A stretch of DNA of 64,000 bases from Acinetobacter phage Ab1-TPeters. Position numbers and translations under genes: made by a program. Within the stretch, counting starts at the first letter, position 1. Every line of letters starts with the position of its first letter. The stretch is from the sequence record PP763253.1. One strand, 5' to 3'. Below, piece after piece: positions 20,742-23,432 of this stretch. Under the pieces are notes generated by a model that was not told the DNA's origin, searched no databases, and worked only from the letters and a program-made list of their open reading frames with translations.

Positions 20742-21011
20742 ATGAAACTAACAATAGAAACTGACCAAAATATAAAGTCAGTAAAACTGGAAATTGAGTT
20801 TGAAGGTGGTTCAGTAACTAAAACTTCTCAGAATTTTGTTACTGAAAATTCAACAACTCAAAATCACGTTCACTCTACACCTGTAGAGTCACCTAAACAG
20901 TTTGAAGAAGTAAAACCTGTTAAGCGTGAAGTTAAAGAAATACATCAGGAAGACAAGCCTGAAGAAAGAGCACCTAACATAGATTCTGGCATGATGGATA
21001 CAACAATATGA
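20742..21011 (+). CDS. hypothetical protein
   Basis: 89-aa ORF with a promoter motif and RBS GGAGG upstream. Confidence 0.35.
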   Translation: MKLTIETDQNIKSVKLEIEFEGGSVTKTSQNFVTENSTTQNHVHSTPVESPKQFEEVKPVKREVKEIHQEDKPEERAPNIDSGMMDTTI

Positions 21012-21871
21012 AAATTATTCGATCTTACTTTTTCAGCAATGCTTTTAAGTATGAAAACATAGAGCCAACTAAAGATAATTTAGTTAAATTGAAAGAGCAA
21101 TATGAAAAAGTAACTGGCTTAGCTGTAGTTGACGATATTATTACTGATTTTGATATGATTGAAGAAATTGGTAATTTTGTTGAATCCAATAACTTTAAAT
21201 CTCCAGATCAACATTCTAGTTTTAAAGCTGGTCCAATTGCTAGTGATTATTTTCGCTTTATTTCAATTACGAAGGCTTTTGAGGCTCGAGAGATTGGAGA
21301 TGAAGTGTTCTATGTTGATAGTGACATGGTTTTCAGTGATAAAGCTAAAGAATTCTTTAAAGGTAAGCTAGGTAATGATAAACCTAAGATGAAAACTATG
21401 TGTATTTCATCTTTATCAGCAAATGGAAGTAGAATTAGTGGTTACGTCGAGCACTGGTTTAACGGTATCTTCCAGACTAATATGGCTGCAGCTTACTTAA
21501 TGCTGCATTGCATTGAATATATTCTTTTTGAAGATGACTCCAATATCGATGAGAAACTCAAAAATGACCTCAACAGCTTTTTAATTAGAATGAAGAATCG
21601 TCAGAAAGTTCCTTGGGGTCTGATTGGAACTAGACTTATGGAGTTCTTAGTTAAAACTGGCCGACTTGAAATTATCCAAGATAATTCTATGACTTCAGTT
21701 GTCCTAGGAACTTATACTAACAAGTTTATCCGTGAAAACACTAAGCTTGACGTAAACGTTCTACTAAATCATATTGATACAGCTAATACTGCTAATAATA
21801 GAAATTATGATTTAGACATTGTAATGACTAACACTGGGTTTAACCGAGTTTATTTATTGGATTTCAAATGA
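21008..21871 (+). CDS. hypothetical protein, possible DxD nucleotide-sugar transferase
   Basis: 287 aa. A hydrophobic strand followed by DxD (VFYVDSDMVF) is reminiscent of GT-A glycosyltransferases. It sits at the head of the sugar-nucleotide cassette. The assignment is weak. Confidence 0.35.
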   Translation: MKIIRSYFFSNAFKYENIEPTKDNLVKLKEQYEKVTGLAVVDDIITDFDMIEEIGNFVESNNFKSPDQHSSFKAGPIASDYFRFISITKAFEAREIGDEVFYVDSDMVFSDKAKEFFKGKLGNDKPKMKTMCISSLSANGSRISGYVEHWFNGIFQTNMAAAYLMLHCIEYILFEDDSNIDEKLKNDLNSFLIRMKNRQKVPWGLIGTRLMEFLVKTGRLEIIQDNSMTSVVLGTYTNKFIRENTKLDVNVLLNHIDTANTANNRNYDLDIVMTNTGFNRVYLLDFK

Positions 21872-22176
21872 CTCTACATATTAAGAACATCACTAAGGAA
21901 GGTCGTCTAATTAAACAAGACGATCGTTATACAGTAACTGACGTTAATCATCTTAATAATCTTACTGTTTCAGAAACTGTTTTGAATGCAGGTAAAGCTA
22001 CTTCTGGTCATTCACACGATGGTTTGGAAGAAGTCTACATGTTCACCAAAGGTTCTGGTTTAATGGAGCTAGGTGAGCCTAATTCAGAAGGTTTCGAGAT
22101 CAATACTTATGGTGTTGAAGCAGGAGATACAGTTTGTGTCCCTGCAGGTTGGTTTCACAAGGTACTCAACAATTAA
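21868..22176 (+). CDS. small cupin-fold protein (sugar isomerase/epimerase-like)
   Basis: Two cupin motifs: GKATSGHSHDGLEEVYMFTKGSG and GDTVCVPAGWFHKV. 102 aa. Confidence 0.5.
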   Translation: MTLHIKNITKEGRLIKQDDRYTVTDVNHLNNLTVSETVLNAGKATSGHSHDGLEEVYMFTKGSGLMELGEPNSEGFEINTYGVEAGDTVCVPAGWFHKVLNN

Positions 22177-22213
22177 GAGTCAACTCTAACATTTACAGCG
22201 ATTTTCCAGAAAT

Positions 22214-22687
22214 ATGAGCGATAAGAAAGTCATTGGCTTTACTTGTTCAACTTTCGACTTACTGCATGCTGGTCATGTAGTAATGCTCGAAGAGTGCCGC
22301 AAGCATTGCGACTACCTAATTGTTGGTCTTCAGAACGACCCTACACTGGATAGACCAACTAAAAATAAACCAATACAGAGTATCATTGAACGTCAAATTC
22401 AACTGCGTGGTTGCTCCTACGTGGATGAAATTGTTGTTTACAACACTGAGGCTGATCTGGTAGATCTTCTCTTATCTTATAATATTGATGTGAGAATTTT
22501 AGGTGTTGAATATCAGAAAGCTGAATTCACTGGAAAGCAAGAATGCTTAGATAAGGGAATTCACCTCATATTTAATTCTAGAGATCATTCTTTCAGCTCT
22601 TCTGAGTTACGTAAACGAGTTCATTCAGCTGAAGAATCAAAGAGATCAGAAATTTCTTTTACTGAGGATCAGTTTCGTGAAAAATAA
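22214..22687 (+). CDS. sugar-phosphate nucleotidyltransferase of the cytidylyltransferase fold (TagD / RfaE-domain-II-like)
   Basis: HxGH motif GFTCSTFDLLHAGHVVMLEE. The downstream NDPTLDRPTKNKP...RQIQLRGCSYVDEIVVY resembles heptose-1-P adenylyltransferase and glycerol-3-P cytidylyltransferase. Confidence 0.6.
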   Translation: MSDKKVIGFTCSTFDLLHAGHVVMLEECRKHCDYLIVGLQNDPTLDRPTKNKPIQSIIERQIQLRGCSYVDEIVVYNTEADLVDLLLSYNIDVRILGVEYQKAEFTGKQECLDKGIHLIFNSRDHSFSSSELRKRVHSAEESKRSEISFTEDQFREK

Positions 22688-23432
22688 AAAGATTTTAATA
22701 TTTGACGTAGATGGAACTGTGGTTGAATCCTGTCAAGTTCTTGAAGGTGAAATGCTTAAAGTTCTATCTAAGATAGTGACTAATGGTATTCCAGTTGTAT
22801 TTATGTCAGGTACAGATAATGCTGAACTTGAACGAATGGTTGGTCTGCCTTTATCTTCAGTTAGCTGTAATAGCCGAATCTATCTAGCAGGTAATTCAGG
22901 TGCTGAGATCTATAAACTAAGCACTGGGTTTATAAAAACTGAAGCTGCTTTAGAGTTTCGTAAATCACTTGACCTTTCTAGTAAGTCAAATATTCTTAAA
23001 GCTGTAGCTAATGCTATCAAGAAATTTGAACTTAAGTGTGAGATCGGTGAACAAGTAATTGACCGTGGTAATCAAATTACTTTATCTTGCATTGGACGTA
23101 AAGCTCCATCCGAAGATAAAGCTAACTGGGATCCTGACTGTACTAAACGAAATGAAATAGCTAGTTACATTAAAGGCAAACTTGGTGTTAATTACTCTGT
23201 CACTGTAGCTGGTACTACGTCAATTGATATTACTTCAGATAGCTGGGATAAGGCGGACGGAGTAAGAAAGATTGCTGAGCTGGAAGGTATTGAACTTAAA
23301 GACATCTTCTTCTTCGGAGATAAATGTCAAGTAGGTGGTAATGATTACCCAGCTGCAGCTATCGTTGATCATTGTCATGTCAAAGATCCATCAGAAACTC
23401 TTTCTATTTTAGAAACCCATTTTATTGTATAA
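22677..23432 (+). CDS. eukaryotic-type phosphomannomutase-like HAD enzyme
   Basis: HAD motif I IFDVDGTV. SIDITSDSWDK matches SFDVFPDGWDK, and IFFFGDKCQVGGNDY matches YFFGDKTMPGGNDHE, both from PMM-family proteins. Confidence 0.65.
   Translation: MKNKKILIFDVDGTVVESCQVLEGEMLKVLSKIVTNGIPVVFMSGTDNAELERMVGLPLSSVSCNSRIYLAGNSGAEIYKLSTGFIKTEAALEFRKSLDLSSKSNILKAVANAIKKFELKCEIGEQVIDRGNQITLSCIGRKAPSEDKANWDPDCTKRNEIASYIKGKLGVNYSVTVAGTTSIDITSDSWDKADGVRKIAELEGIELKDIFFFGDKCQVGGNDYPAAAIVDHCHVKDPSETLSILETHFIV

What the first reader, a model, noticed from the sequence alone, without database searches (positions are those of the whole stretch)
21008..23432. Phage-borne NDP-hexose biosynthesis cassette including a eukaryotic-type phosphomannomutase homolog
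Four contiguous genes encode a possible DxD glycosyltransferase (VFYVDSDMVF), a 102-aa cupin (the fold used by mannose-6-P isomerase), a cytidylyltransferase-fold sugar-phosphate nucleotidyltransferase (HxGH motif FDLLHAGH) and a PMM-family HAD enzyme.

The PMM-family enzyme matches eukaryotic phosphomannomutase motifs, not the bacterial ManB/PGM fold. The matches are DVDGT, SxDxxxDxWDK and FFGDKxxxGGND.

Together these could convert Fru-6-P to Man-6-P to Man-1-P to NDP-mannose (or a related hexose) and transfer it. Phages normally borrow host UDP-glucose to glycosylate DNA, so a self-contained mannose-type pathway is unusual.

Given the nearby thymidylate-modification genes, it may decorate hydroxymethylated bases. 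It could equally modify virion proteins or host surface glycans.
Basis: partly seen in the sequence, partly recalled or inferred. Interest (0 to 1): 0.65.

Follow-up and report, generated by a model that had tools for sequence, protein, structure and literature searches.

The report
Phage sugar-activation cassette for modified DNA
A phage related to viruses with sugar-decorated thymidine carries a compact set of genes that probably turns a central sugar phosphate into an activated sugar, using an unusual enzyme combination that recurs in many uncultured viruses; this kind of pathway is already known in phages, but this version is not.

Summary
The four ORFs and all quoted motifs are present at the stated coordinates.

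Three annotations hold:
- a cupin whose best match is cupin-type phosphoglucose isomerase;
- a cytidylyltransferase-fold nucleotidyltransferase;
- a PMM-family HAD-IIB enzyme with an intact catalytic set. Its closest solved relative is the bacterial Lactococcus alpha-phosphoglucomutase, not a eukaryotic PMM.

These three are functionally linked. They recur as a trio in other viral contigs, they overlap translationally, and pairs of them occur as fusion proteins.

ORF1, the proposed "DxD glycosyltransferase", is unsupported. It is a near-orphan with no profile or structure hit. Its only other phage homologue is in Cobetia phage Carin-5, whose thymidines are hypermodified.

The window phage belongs to the RP13/SP-15-like group by its long PolA, its dUMP-hydroxymethylase-like TS homologue and its dCTP deaminase. 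SP-15 already encodes a cupin PGI, a PMM, GalU and glycosyltransferases for decorating its modified thymidine.

The cassette is therefore most likely a non-orthologous version of a known phage strategy. It would run Fru-6-P to hexose-6-P to hexose-1-P to NDP-hexose for DNA hypermodification. Glucose, mannose and heptose cannot be told apart.

In this genome the cupin gene carries an in-frame TAA.

Verdict: new variant of a known kind, moderate interest.

The parts
20742..21011 (+). Small ORF (89 aa) whose end overlaps the ORF1 start by 4 nt. Function unknown; it may be part of the unit.
   Evidence: It has no family hit. An 88-aa ORF sits at the same position in the 70%-identity relative L003.
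21008..21871 (+). ORF1, 287 aa. A near-orphan protein with conserved SDYxR...YVDSD and WGLIG motifs. It is a candidate transferase, but its function is not established.
   Evidence: No Pfam, PHROG, NCBIfam or PDB hit. Two very large protein searches returned only the protein itself and a 70%-identity relative. One phage homologue exists, Carin-5 gp97 (26% identity, E 1e-9). The AF2 model has pLDDT 39.6.
21868..22176 (+). Cupin (102 aa as encoded). It keeps the metal ligands H48, H50, E54/E55 and H97. Probably a hexose-6-phosphate aldose-ketose isomerase, either PGI-like or PMI-like.
   Evidence: Pfam GPI PF06560, 25.4 bits against a cut-off of 20.7. The best PDB hits are Pyrococcus cupin-type PGIs (4luk, 5e-5). 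Intact homologues of 117-118 aa are 72-79% identical.
22174..22224 (+). In-frame TAA (22174-22176) followed by 15 conserved codons (ESTLTFTAIFQKYER) and the ancestral stop. The ancestral end overlaps the ORF3 start by 11 nt.
   Evidence: Codon 103 is TAA here and TCT (Ser) in L003. After the stop there are 5 synonymous differences and 1 non-synonymous difference.
22214..22687 (+). Cytidylyltransferase-fold (HxGH) nucleotidyltransferase, 157 aa. Proposed sugar-1-phosphate nucleotidyltransferase; the nucleotide it uses is unknown.
   Evidence: PF01467, 52.3 bits. PHROG 7878, 6e-33. rfaE_dom_II 70.4 bits and TagD 53.2 bits, both far below their equivalog cut-offs. PDB hits to ECT and TagD. Fusions with the cupin and with the HAD are seen elsewhere.
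22677..23432 (+). HAD-IIB, PMM-family phosphohexomutase, 251 aa, of the bacterial PgmH/APGM-like clade.
   Evidence: PF03332, 44.8 bits, and TIGR01484, 65.4 bits. PDB 4bnd, 2e-21. Invariant D10, D12, T14, S44, K192, D215, N222 and D223. AF2 pLDDT 91, and the top Foldseek hit is 4bnd at 8e-23. Clade motif ITLSCIGR..K..WDPD..KR.
7430..8479 (+). Context: thymidylate-synthase homologue (349 aa), probably a dUMP hydroxymethylase that supplies 5-hmdU.
   Evidence: PF00303. It keeps C146, R166, D169 and N177, the uracil-type residue, but has L143D like the hydroxymethylases. Its best phage hits are RP13, EP_H11 and IME392, followed by the Ackermannviridae TS homologues.
13029..16238 (+). Context: long family-A DNA polymerase (1069 aa) of the RP13/YerA41/SP-15 type.
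   Evidence: The tblastn top hits are RP13 (32% identity, 95% coverage), IME392, EP_H11, RHph_TM30, LIS04, phiLo, SP-15 and Carin-5. These are the phages grouped as 'RP13-like' in PMC12686479.
26169..26759 (+). Context: dCTP deaminase-like protein, a source of dUMP for the hydroxymethylase.
   Evidence: PF22769 DCD, 4e-29.

Best explanation
ORF2, ORF3 and ORF4 form a phage-encoded nucleotide-sugar supply line.

**Proposed steps**
1. The cupin isomerises a ketose phosphate taken from central metabolism, most simply fructose-6-P, to an aldose-6-P (Glc-6-P or Man-6-P).
2. The PMM-family HAD-IIB enzyme moves the phosphate from C6 to C1 through a bisphosphate intermediate, using the Asp10 phospho-enzyme.
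3. The cytidylyltransferase-fold enzyme condenses the hexose-1-P with an NTP to give an NDP-hexose.

**Proposed use**
The phage belongs to the RP13/SP-15-like group, whose thymidines are replaced through 5-hmdU chemistry and then carry hexoses and a phosphate-linked group. The NDP-sugar is therefore most likely a donor for decorating the phage's own hypermodified thymidine.

ORF1 shares the translationally coupled block and has its only homologue in T-hypermodified Carin-5. It is the candidate transferase.

**What is shown and what is inferred**
- Shown: the folds, the catalytic motifs, the gene linkage and fusions, and the phage-group affiliation.
- Inferred: every substrate, the nucleotide used, the acceptor, and the role of ORF1.

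In this particular genome the isomerase gene carries a premature TAA. Step 1 may therefore be lost or may depend on readthrough, in which case the host's PGI or PMI would supply the hexose-6-P.
For: **Folds and motifs**

**Linkage of the three genes**
- The same four genes occur in the same order in a 70%-identity relative.
- A T4-like contig carries cupin-HAD-CT next to a dCMP-hydroxymethylase-like TS and a TAGT glycosyltransferase.
- Three IMG/VR contigs carry cupin-CT-HAD, followed by an SDR epimerase/dehydratase, a family that typically acts on NDP-sugars.
- CT and HAD overlap by 11 nt, both here and in L021-L024.
- About 29 of 58 viral loci with a HAD homologue have a CT-fold gene within 10 kb. 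None of the 80 best cellular loci does.
- 21 of 58 viral loci have a small PF01050 PMI-type cupin within 10 kb, and in 8 it lies directly upstream of the HAD.

**Fusion proteins**
- CT + cupin in Acinetobacter phage vB_AbaM_3098.
- CT + HAD-PMM in an archaeal protein.
- NTP_transferase + HAD-PMM + PMI cupin in Methanosarcinales.

**Mutase rather than generic phosphatase**
- The closest solved relatives are alpha-PGM and the PMMs.
- Bacterial homologues are flanked by type I PMI and GH130 mannoside phosphorylases.

**DNA as the target**
- The cassette lies in the replication and nucleotide-metabolism block.
- PolA and the TS homologue match RP13-like phages best.
- The TS residues resemble those of a dUMP hydroxymethylase, and a dCTP deaminase is present.
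- ORF1's only other homologue is in Carin-5, whose DNA carries thymidines with two hexoses, a HexNAc and phosphate (PMC12686479).
- SP-15 encodes a cupin PGI (PF06560), a PMM, GalU and glycosyltransferases, all proposed to decorate its modified thymidine (PMC5977210).
- A phage HAD/kinase + cytidylyltransferase + GT set has been shown experimentally to put heptose on 5hmC (bioRxiv 10.1101/2023.12.21.572611).
Against: - No biochemical data exist for any of the four proteins or for close homologues.
- Known hexose-1-P nucleotidyltransferases use the GT-A-like fold. The only sugar-1-P enzyme of the cytidylyltransferase fold that I know of is the heptose-1-P adenylyltransferase, which uses the beta anomer, whereas PMM-type mutases make the alpha anomer (my knowledge).
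- ORF3 falls far below the equivalog cut-offs for both HldE domain II and TagD. It also lacks the STTR5 motif of promiscuous heptose nucleotidyltransferases (PMC11573728).
- Close ORF3 homologues (47-61% identity) occur in many phages without the cupin or the HAD nearby.
- The cupin is interrupted in this genome.
- ORF1 has no detectable similarity to any glycosyltransferase.
- No other recognisable glycosyltransferase was found among the roughly 40 window ORFs scanned. About 30 structural-block ORFs of at least 90 aa were not scanned.
- The modification state of this phage's DNA is unknown.
- HAD-PMM homologues also occur in viral O-antigen-like clusters, so a non-DNA acceptor remains possible.
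Confidence: 0.5

Rival explanations
1. The enzyme logic is the same, but the sugar is a manno-heptose. The cupin isomerises sedoheptulose-7-P to D-glycero-D-manno-heptose-7-P. The HAD mutase converts this directly to heptose-1-P, replacing the canonical kinase plus phosphatase. ORF3 then makes an NDP-heptose that is put on DNA.
For: - ORF3's best curated matches are the heptose-1-P adenylyltransferase domain (TIGR02199, 70 bits) and PHROG 7878 'HldE'.
- A phage cytidylyltransferase, together with a HAD/kinase and a GT, makes heptosyl-5hmC.
- PMI-type cupins would give the manno configuration.
- The SDR next to the trio in L156 could be HldD-like.
Against: - 70 bits is far below the 181.5-bit equivalog cut-off.
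- The (F/L)xxGRSTT motif is absent: ORF3 has FNSRDHSFSSS.
- No PMM-family enzyme is known to act on heptose phosphates (my knowledge).
- The mutase would give the alpha anomer, while HldC-type enzymes use the beta anomer (my knowledge).
- The cellular relatives of the HAD sit in hexose (mannose) contexts.
Confidence: 0.1
2. ORF3 is a TagD-like CTP:polyol-phosphate cytidylyltransferase, for example making CDP-glycerol. It would provide the phosphodiester-linked group seen on SP-15-type thymidines. The cupin and HAD would work independently, only boosting host hexose-1-P and UDP-glucose.
For: - ORF3 matches TagD and ECT structures (1coz 5e-12, 3elb 3e-18), and many homologues are annotated as TagD.
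- SP-15 encodes a TagF-like CDP-glycerol glycerophosphotransferase in its modification cluster (PMC5977210).
- The Carin-5 hypermodification contains phosphate and a C3H7O5P fragment. I read that fragment as glycerol-phosphate-like.
- The T4-like phage AB1I1M-1 has the cupin and HAD without any CT, next to a T4 beta-glucosyltransferase. The pair can therefore work with host GalU.
Against: - CT-cupin and CT-HAD fusions, together with the tight cupin-CT-HAD operons, argue that the CT uses the product of the mutase.
- The TagD equivalog score is 53 bits against a cut-off of 165.
- No TagF-like transferase was found among the window ORFs scanned; about 30 structural-block ORFs were not scanned.
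Confidence: 0.15
3. The cassette makes an NDP-sugar, but the acceptor is not DNA. It could glycosylate virion proteins, or remodel host surface polysaccharide for superinfection exclusion or as an auxiliary metabolic function.
For: - HAD-PMM homologues lie in viral O-antigen-like clusters with aminotransferase, formyltransferase and GT2/GT4 genes.
- CT-fold genes in cyanophages are usually discussed as cell-wall genes.
- The only GT candidate here, ORF1, is uncharacterised.
Against: - The cassette sits among replication and nucleotide-metabolism genes, not next to structural or lysis genes.
- The affiliation with T-hypermodified phages argues for DNA, as does the trio's position next to DNA-modification genes in T4-like contigs.
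Confidence: 0.15
4. ORF3 is an NMN adenylyltransferase working with the nearby NUDIX protein in NAD+ salvage or reconstitution, and the HAD and cupin handle pentose phosphates.
For: - ORF3 has weak NCBIfam hits to NadR-type NMNAT/Nudix (E 3e-4) and to NadD (6e-3).
- A NUDIX gene lies at 25078-25716.
- In AB1I1M-1, PRPP synthetase and a nicotinate/nicotinamide phosphoribosyltransferase lie about 2.5 kb downstream of the cupin-HAD pair.
Against: - The NMNAT matches are 10-15 orders of magnitude weaker than the HldE/TagD-type matches.
- The HAD is a full-length PMM/alpha-PGM homologue.
- The fusions are with hexose-pathway domains.
Confidence: 0.04

Closest known systems
Bacillus phage SP-15 modification genes: gp011 cupin-type G6P isomerase, gp155 PMM/PGM, gp148 GalU, gp146 Ugd, gp149/152 glycosyltransferases and gp151 TagF-like (PMC5977210)
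   Same: - The logic is the same: a phage-encoded isomerase, mutase, nucleotidyltransferase and transferase, proposed to decorate a hypermodified thymidine.
- The phage group is the same by PolA similarity.
- Both isomerases fall in Pfam PF06560.
- Both genomes carry an NAD-dependent ligase, a DEAD_2-type helicase and a TS homologue.
   Different: - SP-15 uses the classical alpha-D-phosphohexomutase and a GT-A-fold GalU. The window uses a HAD-IIB PMM-family mutase and a cytidylyltransferase-fold enzyme.
- The two cupins are only marginally similar (E 1e-4).
- The SP-15 genes are dispersed, whereas these are one overlapping block.
- The roles of the SP-15 genes are themselves only proposed.
Metavirome 'contig 53' heptose pathway: HAD/APH bifunctional enzyme + cytidylyltransferase + GT-B (bioRxiv 10.1101/2023.12.21.572611)
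   Same: A phage cytidylyltransferase-fold enzyme and a HAD enzyme act together to make a nucleotide sugar that a phage GT attaches to a hydroxymethylated pyrimidine in DNA. This was shown experimentally in E. coli.
   Different: - In contig 53 the HAD is a phosphatase fused to a kinase. Here it is a PMM-type mutase with no kinase.
- Here a cupin isomerase is added.
- The base there is 5hmC made by an MT/TET route. Here it is probably derived from 5-hmdU.
UDP-arabinose pathways of RB69, DLP3 and HY126 (PMC13326640)
   Same: A phage-encoded isomerase (SIS type), a HAD phosphatase and a nucleotidyltransferase/kinase make a dedicated NDP-sugar for DNA base glycosylation, clustered with a TS homologue.
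   Different: The folds differ (SIS isomerase, GT-A NTase + kinase, small HAD phosphatase), the sugar is a pentose, and the base is 5-hydroxycytosine.
Lactococcus lactis alpha-phosphoglucomutase PgmH/APGM (PDB 4bnd)
   Same: It is the closest solved relative of ORF4: 30% identity over the full length, phmmer 2e-21 and Foldseek 8e-23. It shares the cap motif WDPD.TKRNEIA.
   Different: - At 30% identity, substrate preference (glucose or mannose) cannot be transferred.
- Cellular members of the same clade sit in mannose contexts.
Type II PMI-GMP (ManC/AlgA-type bifunctional mannose-1-P guanylyltransferase / mannose-6-P isomerase)
   Same: The architecture pairs a nucleotidyltransferase with a cupin isomerase. 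This is mirrored by the CT-cupin fusion in phage vB_AbaM_3098 and by the archaeal NTase-PMM-PMI fusion.
   Different: - ManC's nucleotidyltransferase has the GT-A-like fold, not the HxGH fold.
- The window's cupin has the HxH...E...H ligand set, not the QxH..R.E.W signature of PF01050.

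Membership tests
HAD-IIB, PMM family (PF03332 / TIGR01484) | Score above the curated family cut-offs | tested here: met
   PF03332, 44.8 bits against 22.4. TIGR01484, 65.4 bits against 41.8.
HAD-IIB, PMM family (PF03332 / TIGR01484) | The four HAD catalytic motifs: DxDxT nucleophile, S/T, K, and GDxxxxxxND | tested here: met
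   D10, D12, T14, S44, K192, D215, N222 and D223 are invariant across 25 homologues. The motifs are visible.
HAD-IIB, PMM family (PF03332 / TIGR01484) | Core-plus-cap fold of PMM / alpha-PGM | tested here: met
   AF2 pLDDT 91.1. The Foldseek top 24 hits are 4bnd and PMM1/PMM2-type structures, with TM about 0.7.
HAD-IIB, PMM family (PF03332 / TIGR01484) | Phosphomutase activity (rather than phosphatase activity) and sugar preference | not testable with these tools
   Only context is available: fusions and neighbours with PMI, NTases and GH130.
Cupin-type phosphoglucose isomerase (PF06560) | Score above the Pfam gathering cut-off | tested here: met
   25.4 bits against 20.7, but only marginally ahead of the generic Cupin_2 hit at 22.9 bits. 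The PDB cPGI hits range from 5e-5 to 5e-3.
Cupin-type phosphoglucose isomerase (PF06560) | His/His/Glu/His metal site | tested here: met
   GHSHDGLEE and WFH align with the P. furiosus PGI ligand positions.
Cupin-type phosphoglucose isomerase (PF06560) | Full-length domain of about 190 aa, including the N- and C-terminal segments beyond the barrel | tested here: not met
   The match covers only profile positions 66-132 of 182. Intact homologues are 110-118 aa. The protein is therefore best called a minimal cupin isomerase candidate, not a bona fide cPGI.
Cupin-type phosphoglucose isomerase (PF06560) | Intact reading frame | tested here: not met
   An in-frame TAA at 22174-22176 removes the last 16 residues.
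Cytidylyltransferase-like nucleotidyltransferases (PF01467) | HxGH motif and score above the cut-off | tested here: met
   LLHAGH is present. PF01467, 52.3 bits against 21. TIGR00125, 53.1 bits against 27.7.
Heptose-1-P adenylyltransferase (HldE domain II / HldC, TIGR02199) | Equivalog cut-off; (F/L)xxGRSTT or related STT motif | tested here: not met
   70.4 bits against 181.5. ORF3 reads FNSRDHSFSSS at that position.
Glycerol-3-P cytidylyltransferase (TagD, TIGR01518) | Equivalog cut-off | tested here: not met
   53.2 bits against 165.4.
GT-A 'DXD' glycosyltransferases (e.g. PF04488) | Detectable profile or structural similarity to a GT family | tested here: not met
   No hit at E up to 10 in Pfam or PDB for ORF1, its 70%-identity relative or Carin-5 gp97. 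hhalign against a phage PF04488 GT gives a probability of 0.2%.
GT-A 'DXD' glycosyltransferases (e.g. PF04488) | GT-A Rossmann-like fold | tested here: inconclusive
   The AF2 model built from the only two admissible sequences has pLDDT 39.6, so no fold search was attempted.
GT-A 'DXD' glycosyltransferases (e.g. PF04488) | Conserved DxD preceded by a D/S-D-x-x-R motif | tested here: inconclusive
   SDYxR...YVDSD and WGLIG are invariant in the three known sequences. They occur in the same order as ADAIR...YQDAD...WGICGP in the Vibrio phage GT. This is a resemblance seen by eye, with no statistics behind it.
RP13-like (SP-15 / YerA41 / Carin-5) T-hypermodified phages (PMC12686479) | Long (>900 aa) family-A DNA polymerase related to those of RP13, YerA41 and SP-15 | tested here: met
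   The 1069-aa PolA matches RP13 at 32% identity over 95% of its length, then IME392, EP_H11, RHph_TM30, LIS04, phiLo, SP-15 and Carin-5. [quoted passage not shown]
RP13-like (SP-15 / YerA41 / Carin-5) T-hypermodified phages (PMC12686479) | TS variant plus a dCTP or dCMP deaminase for 5-hmdUMP supply | tested here: met
RP13-like (SP-15 / YerA41 / Carin-5) T-hypermodified phages (PMC12686479) | Hypermodified thymidine in virion DNA | not testable with these tools
   Requires LC-MS of virion DNA.

The most novel reading that the evidence does not exclude
A minimal cupin isomerase, a PMM-family HAD mutase and a cytidylyltransferase-fold nucleotidyltransferase together form a virus-enriched three-enzyme module that has not been described. 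It would make a non-canonical nucleotide sugar, for example an ADP- or CDP-hexose, or an NDP-heptose made through a mutase shortcut that bypasses the kinase and phosphatase steps. That product would serve as a 'private' donor, insulated from host UDP/GDP-sugar pools, for DNA hypermodification in RP13-like and some T4-like phages. ORF1 would then represent a new family of DNA-modifying transferase.
Probability: 0.3. Interest if true: 0.7.

Novelty: new variant of a known kind. Interest (0 to 1): 0.5.

Why it matters
The chemistry and biosynthesis of the bulky thymidine hypermodifications in RP13-, YerA41- and Carin-5-like phages are unsolved. The published analysis of Carin-5 only narrows the candidate genes. 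These modifications block sequencing, restriction enzymes and CRISPR nucleases.

This cassette supplies a concrete, testable set of four small proteins for the sugar-donor branch of such a pathway.

If the cytidylyltransferase-fold enzyme activates a hexose-1-P, that would extend the known chemistry of the fold beyond heptose-1-P and alcohol phosphates.

The module recurs with interchangeable cupin subtypes, and its components occur as fusion proteins in phages and archaea. It could therefore serve as a marker for finding glycosylated viral genomes in metagenomes.

Tried and rejected
1. **DNA-level search.** A megablast search of the cassette against 50,697 phage records found nothing.
2. **Finding ORF1 relatives.**
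   - A word-index search with the single sequence and one with a 3-sequence profile.
   - An exhaustive phmmer search of 1.8 billion representatives.
   - An IMG/VR scan.
   - A PDB profile search.
   - All returned only the protein itself and one 70%-identity relative.
3. **ORF1 structure.** AF2 with the only admissible alignment failed at pLDDT 39.6. No fold search was run on that model.
4. **ORF1 against Vibrio phage proteins.** hhalign against the Vibrio phage 1.031.O DXD glycosyltransferase and its 283-aa neighbour was not significant.
5. **Viral scan with the single HAD sequence.** It found nothing. The alignment-based scan was needed.
6. **'Eukaryotic origin' of the PMM homologue.** Rejected. 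The protein belongs to a large prokaryotic and viral clade whose solved member is bacterial.
7. **Stop-codon recoding as an explanation for the in-frame TAA.** There are no tRNA or suppressor genes in the window, and all neighbouring ORFs are long and uninterrupted. A simple nonsense mutation is more likely.
8. **Internal promoter or terminator.** The scan found no signal inside the cassette beyond chance.
9. **Deciding between glucose and mannose from context.** The evidence conflicts.
   - PGI-like cupin matches, and the T4 beta-GT context, point to glucose.
   - PMI cupins, GH130 neighbours and PMI fusions point to mannose.
   - The question was left open.
10. **Literature.** A search for this enzyme combination in phages found no description.

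Full report
**Observation**

The four + strand ORFs exist exactly as described:
- ORF1, 21008-21871 (287 aa)
- ORF2, 21868-22176 (102 aa)
- ORF3, 22214-22687 (157 aa)
- ORF4, 22677-23432 (251 aa)

All quoted motifs are present. The genes are packed with 4-, 4- and 11-nt overlaps. A consensus scan finds no promoter or terminator signal inside the block beyond chance.

**What each protein is**

*ORF4.* This is a PMM-family HAD-IIB enzyme.
- It scores PF03332 44.8 bits and TIGR01484 65.4 bits.
- All four HAD motifs are present, and the nucleophile is invariant across 25 homologues.
- The AF2 model is confident (pLDDT 91.1).
- Its best structural and sequence neighbour is the atypical bacterial alpha-phosphoglucomutase of Lactococcus lactis, 4bnd (phmmer 2e-21, Foldseek 8e-23). 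Eukaryotic PMM1/PMM2 follow.
- A cap-domain motif, ITLSCIGR..K..WDPD..KR, places it in the PgmH-like clade rather than the eukaryotic-PMM-like clade. Both clades occur in viral contigs.
- The family is abundant in cellular genomes.
- 'Eukaryotic-type' therefore describes the fold family, not the origin.

*ORF3.* This is a cytidylyltransferase-fold HxGH nucleotidyltransferase.
- It scores PF01467 52.3 bits and PHROG 7878 6e-33.
- It does not reach the equivalog thresholds for heptose-1-P adenylyltransferase (70 bits against 181) or for TagD (53 bits against 165).

*ORF2.* This is a metal-binding cupin.
- Its best matches are cupin-type phosphoglucose isomerases: PF06560 at 25.4 bits against a cut-off of 20.7, and Pyrococcus PGI structures at E 5e-5.
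- It covers only the barrel core of that family.

*ORF1.* It has no hit in Pfam, PHROGs, NCBIfam or the PDB.
- Searches of billions of proteins returned only the protein itself and a 70%-identity relative.
- One phage homologue exists: Cobetia phage Carin-5 gp97, at 26% identity and E 1e-9.
- AF2 failed.
- Three short motifs (an N-terminal KIIxxYFF, SDYxR...YVDSD, and WGLIG) are conserved. By eye they parallel those of a phage PF04488 DXD glycosyltransferase, but hhalign sees nothing.
- The glycosyltransferase call is therefore a lead, not a finding.

**Linkage of the three enzymes**

The whole four-gene block recurs in a 70%-identity relative (L003).

The trio also appears in other viral contigs:
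- A T4-like contig (L013) has cupin-HAD-CT. It lies downstream of a dCMP-hydroxymethylase-like TS and a TAGT glycosyltransferase, with a UDP-galactopyranose mutase 6 kb further on.
- Three IMG/VR contigs have cupin-CT-HAD next to a family-B polymerase. An SDR epimerase/dehydratase follows directly.

Counts across the loci recovered:
- Of 58 IMG/VR loci with a HAD homologue, about 29 carry a CT-fold gene within 10 kb, and several show the same 11-nt overlap.
- 21 of the 58 carry a small stand-alone PF01050 (type II PMI-like) cupin, and in 8 it lies immediately upstream of the HAD.
- None of the 80 best cellular loci has a CT-fold neighbour.

Fusion proteins tie the parts together:
- CT + cupin in Acinetobacter phage vB_AbaM_3098
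- CT + HAD-PMM in an archaeal protein
- NTP_transferase + HAD-PMM + PMI cupin in Methanosarcinales, whose HAD domain is the closest cellular match to ORF4 at 39% identity

In Singulisphaera the HAD is flanked by a type I PMI and a GH130 mannoside phosphorylase, and in Mucilaginibacter by a GH130 enzyme.

Together these results make isomerase, then mutase, then nucleotidyltransferase the best reading. They also argue that the HAD is a mutase rather than a generic phosphatase.

**Which sugar**

The evidence conflicts.

For glucose:
- The window's cupin matches PGI.
- The nearest solved HAD is a phosphoglucomutase.
- The 72%- and 52%-identical cupin-HAD pair of the T4-like Acinetobacter phage AB1I1M-1 has no CT gene. 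It sits near a dCMP hydroxymethylase, a TAGT and a bona fide T4 beta-glucosyltransferase (PF09198, 245 bits). Its product must therefore feed a host enzyme, most simply Glc-1-P to GalU.

For mannose:
- PMI-type cupins, the PMI fusion and the GH130 neighbours accompany the same HAD clade.

For heptose:
- ORF3's best family match is the heptose-1-P adenylyltransferase domain.
- A phage HAD/kinase + cytidylyltransferase + GT set has been shown to put heptose on 5hmC.
- However, ORF3 lacks the STTR5 motif.

I leave the sugar open. My rough weights are hexose about 0.75, split near-evenly between glucose and mannose, and heptose about 0.1.

**Context and target**

The cassette lies in a + strand replication and nucleotide-metabolism block. 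That block contains:
- an NAD-dependent ligase;
- an AAA_28 kinase-like protein;
- a TS homologue;
- an HD 5'-deoxynucleotidase-like protein;
- a primase-like protein;
- a DEAD_2 helicase;
- PolA;
- an RNAP beta'-like fragment;
- PolX;
- then, downstream of the cassette, an actin-like protein, an exonuclease, a NUDIX protein, a cell-wall hydrolase and a dCTP deaminase-like protein.

The structural genes follow on the opposite strand.

The 1069-aa PolA matches Ralstonia phage RP13 best. The next hits are IME392, EP_H11, RHph_TM30, LIS04, phiLo, SP-15 and Carin-5. This is the set that PMC12686479 groups as 'RP13-like' phages with hypermodified thymidine.

The TS homologue keeps the uracil-type Asn177 but has Asp at position 143, like hydroxymethylases. 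PMC13326640 notes that position 143 correlates with hydroxymethylation. Its best hits are RP13, EP_H11 and IME392, followed by the Ackermannviridae homologues. From my own knowledge, the Ackermannviridae enzymes supply 5-hmdU.

Carin-5 is the only other phage with an ORF1 homologue. About 75% of its thymidines carry a linker, two hexoses, a HexNAc, an unknown residue and phosphate.

SP-15 is the chemically defined prototype of this group. It encodes a PF06560 cupin G6P isomerase, a classical PMM/PGM, GalU, Ugd, two glycosyltransferases and a TagF-like enzyme, all proposed to decorate its dihydroxypentyl-uracil.

The window cassette is therefore best seen as a compact, non-orthologous version of that known logic. 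DNA is the most likely acceptor but is unproven.

**Rivals**

- ORF3 could be a TagD-like enzyme making a CDP-polyol for the phosphodiester-linked group. Supporting points are the TagF-like gene in SP-15, the C3H7O5P fragment in Carin-5, and the cupin-HAD pair working without a CT in AB1I1M-1. The CT fusions argue against it.
- The acceptor could be a virion protein or a host glycan (one search gives the context).
- An NMNAT/NAD role for ORF3 is weakly suggested by sub-threshold hits and by neighbouring NUDIX and NAD-salvage genes, but it is much less likely.

**A defect in this genome**

The cupin ORF is cut by an in-frame TAA at codon 103, where the relative has TCT (Ser).
- The next 15 codons still encode the conserved C-terminal strand. 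They end at the ancestral stop, which overlaps the ORF3 start.
- After the stop there are 5 synonymous differences and 1 non-synonymous difference from the relative.
- An assembly from another sequencing run is 100% identical over 14.6 kb, including the TAA.
- No suppressor tRNA is encoded in the window.
- The mutation is either recent or tolerated through readthrough. If the truncated protein is inactive, the host's PGI or PMI would have to supply the hexose-6-P.

**Novelty and score**

Phage-encoded nucleotide-sugar pathways for DNA decoration are now an established kind. Examples are SP-15, the UDP-arabinose pathways of RB69, DLP3 and HY126, the contig 53 heptose pathway, the Thanatos UDP-xylose enzyme and the RL38J1 UDP-Galf mutase.

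The enzyme set here is different: a minimal cupin, a HAD-type mutase and a CT-fold nucleotidyltransferase. Its recurrence in viruses was not described in any paper I could find.

I rate it a new variant of a known kind, with interest 0.5.

Noticed in passing
window 22174-22224: The cupin gene carries an in-frame TAA at codon 103. The 15 codons after it still encode the conserved C-terminus and end at the ancestral stop, which overlaps ORF3. A second public assembly is identical, including the TAA.
   Followed up: yes
window 17081-18397: A 438-aa ORF has RNA polymerase Rpb1 domains 1 and 2 only, i.e. a split beta'-like subunit. This suggests a phage-encoded multisubunit RNA polymerase, which I did not expect in an RP13-like phage.
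   Followed up: no
window 19960-20691 and 58130-58465: One ORF is PolX-like (HHH_8 + pol beta thumb, 243 aa). A second, separate 111-aa ORF also carries an HHH_8 domain. These may be duplicated or split family-X polymerase modules.
   Followed up: no
window 23449-24390: An actin-like ParM/Alp7A-family protein (phrog_691 'partition protein') lies immediately downstream of the cassette. The same arrangement is seen in the 70%-identity relative L003.
   Followed up: no
window 7430-8479: The TS homologue is 349 aa. It has a C-terminal extension of about 100 aa that is absent from ThyA and from the T4-type hydroxymethylases, and it has W80S and H147N substitutions.
   Followed up: partly
window 27318-27365: A perfect 20-bp hairpin lies at the junction between the + strand early block and the - strand structural/lysis block. 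It is probably a bidirectional terminator.
   Followed up: no
L074 4296-6080 (Methanosarcinales MAG; also L078, L080): A single 594-aa protein fuses NTP_transferase, a PMM-family HAD and a PF01050 PMI cupin. This looks like a complete Fru-6-P to NDP-mannose pathway in one polypeptide.
   Followed up: partly
L005 5962-6735 (Acinetobacter phage vB_AbaM_3098): One CDS annotated as hypothetical is a fusion of a cytidylyltransferase-fold domain with a cupin related to the window's (38% identity).
   Followed up: partly
L065 11192-12091 (IMG/VR contig): A 299-aa protein has a SET domain fused to a cytidylyltransferase-fold domain that is close to ORF3 (E 1e-60). It lies just downstream of a PMM-like HAD.
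   Followed up: no
L002 5974-7686 (Cobetia phage Carin-5): The ORF1 homologue gp97 is followed directly by a polysaccharide pyruvyl transferase homologue (PF04230). It is preceded by a dNMP kinase and a nucleoside-monophosphate nucleosidase-like gene. This may be a second modification cluster, distinct from the #174-179 genes discussed in the Carin-5 paper.
   Followed up: partly
L001 11219-13858 (Acinetobacter phage AB1I1M-1): PRPP synthetase and a nicotinate/nicotinamide phosphoribosyltransferase lie about 2.5 kb downstream of the cupin-HAD pair. This raises a possible, though unlikely, link to NAD+ salvage.
   Followed up: partly
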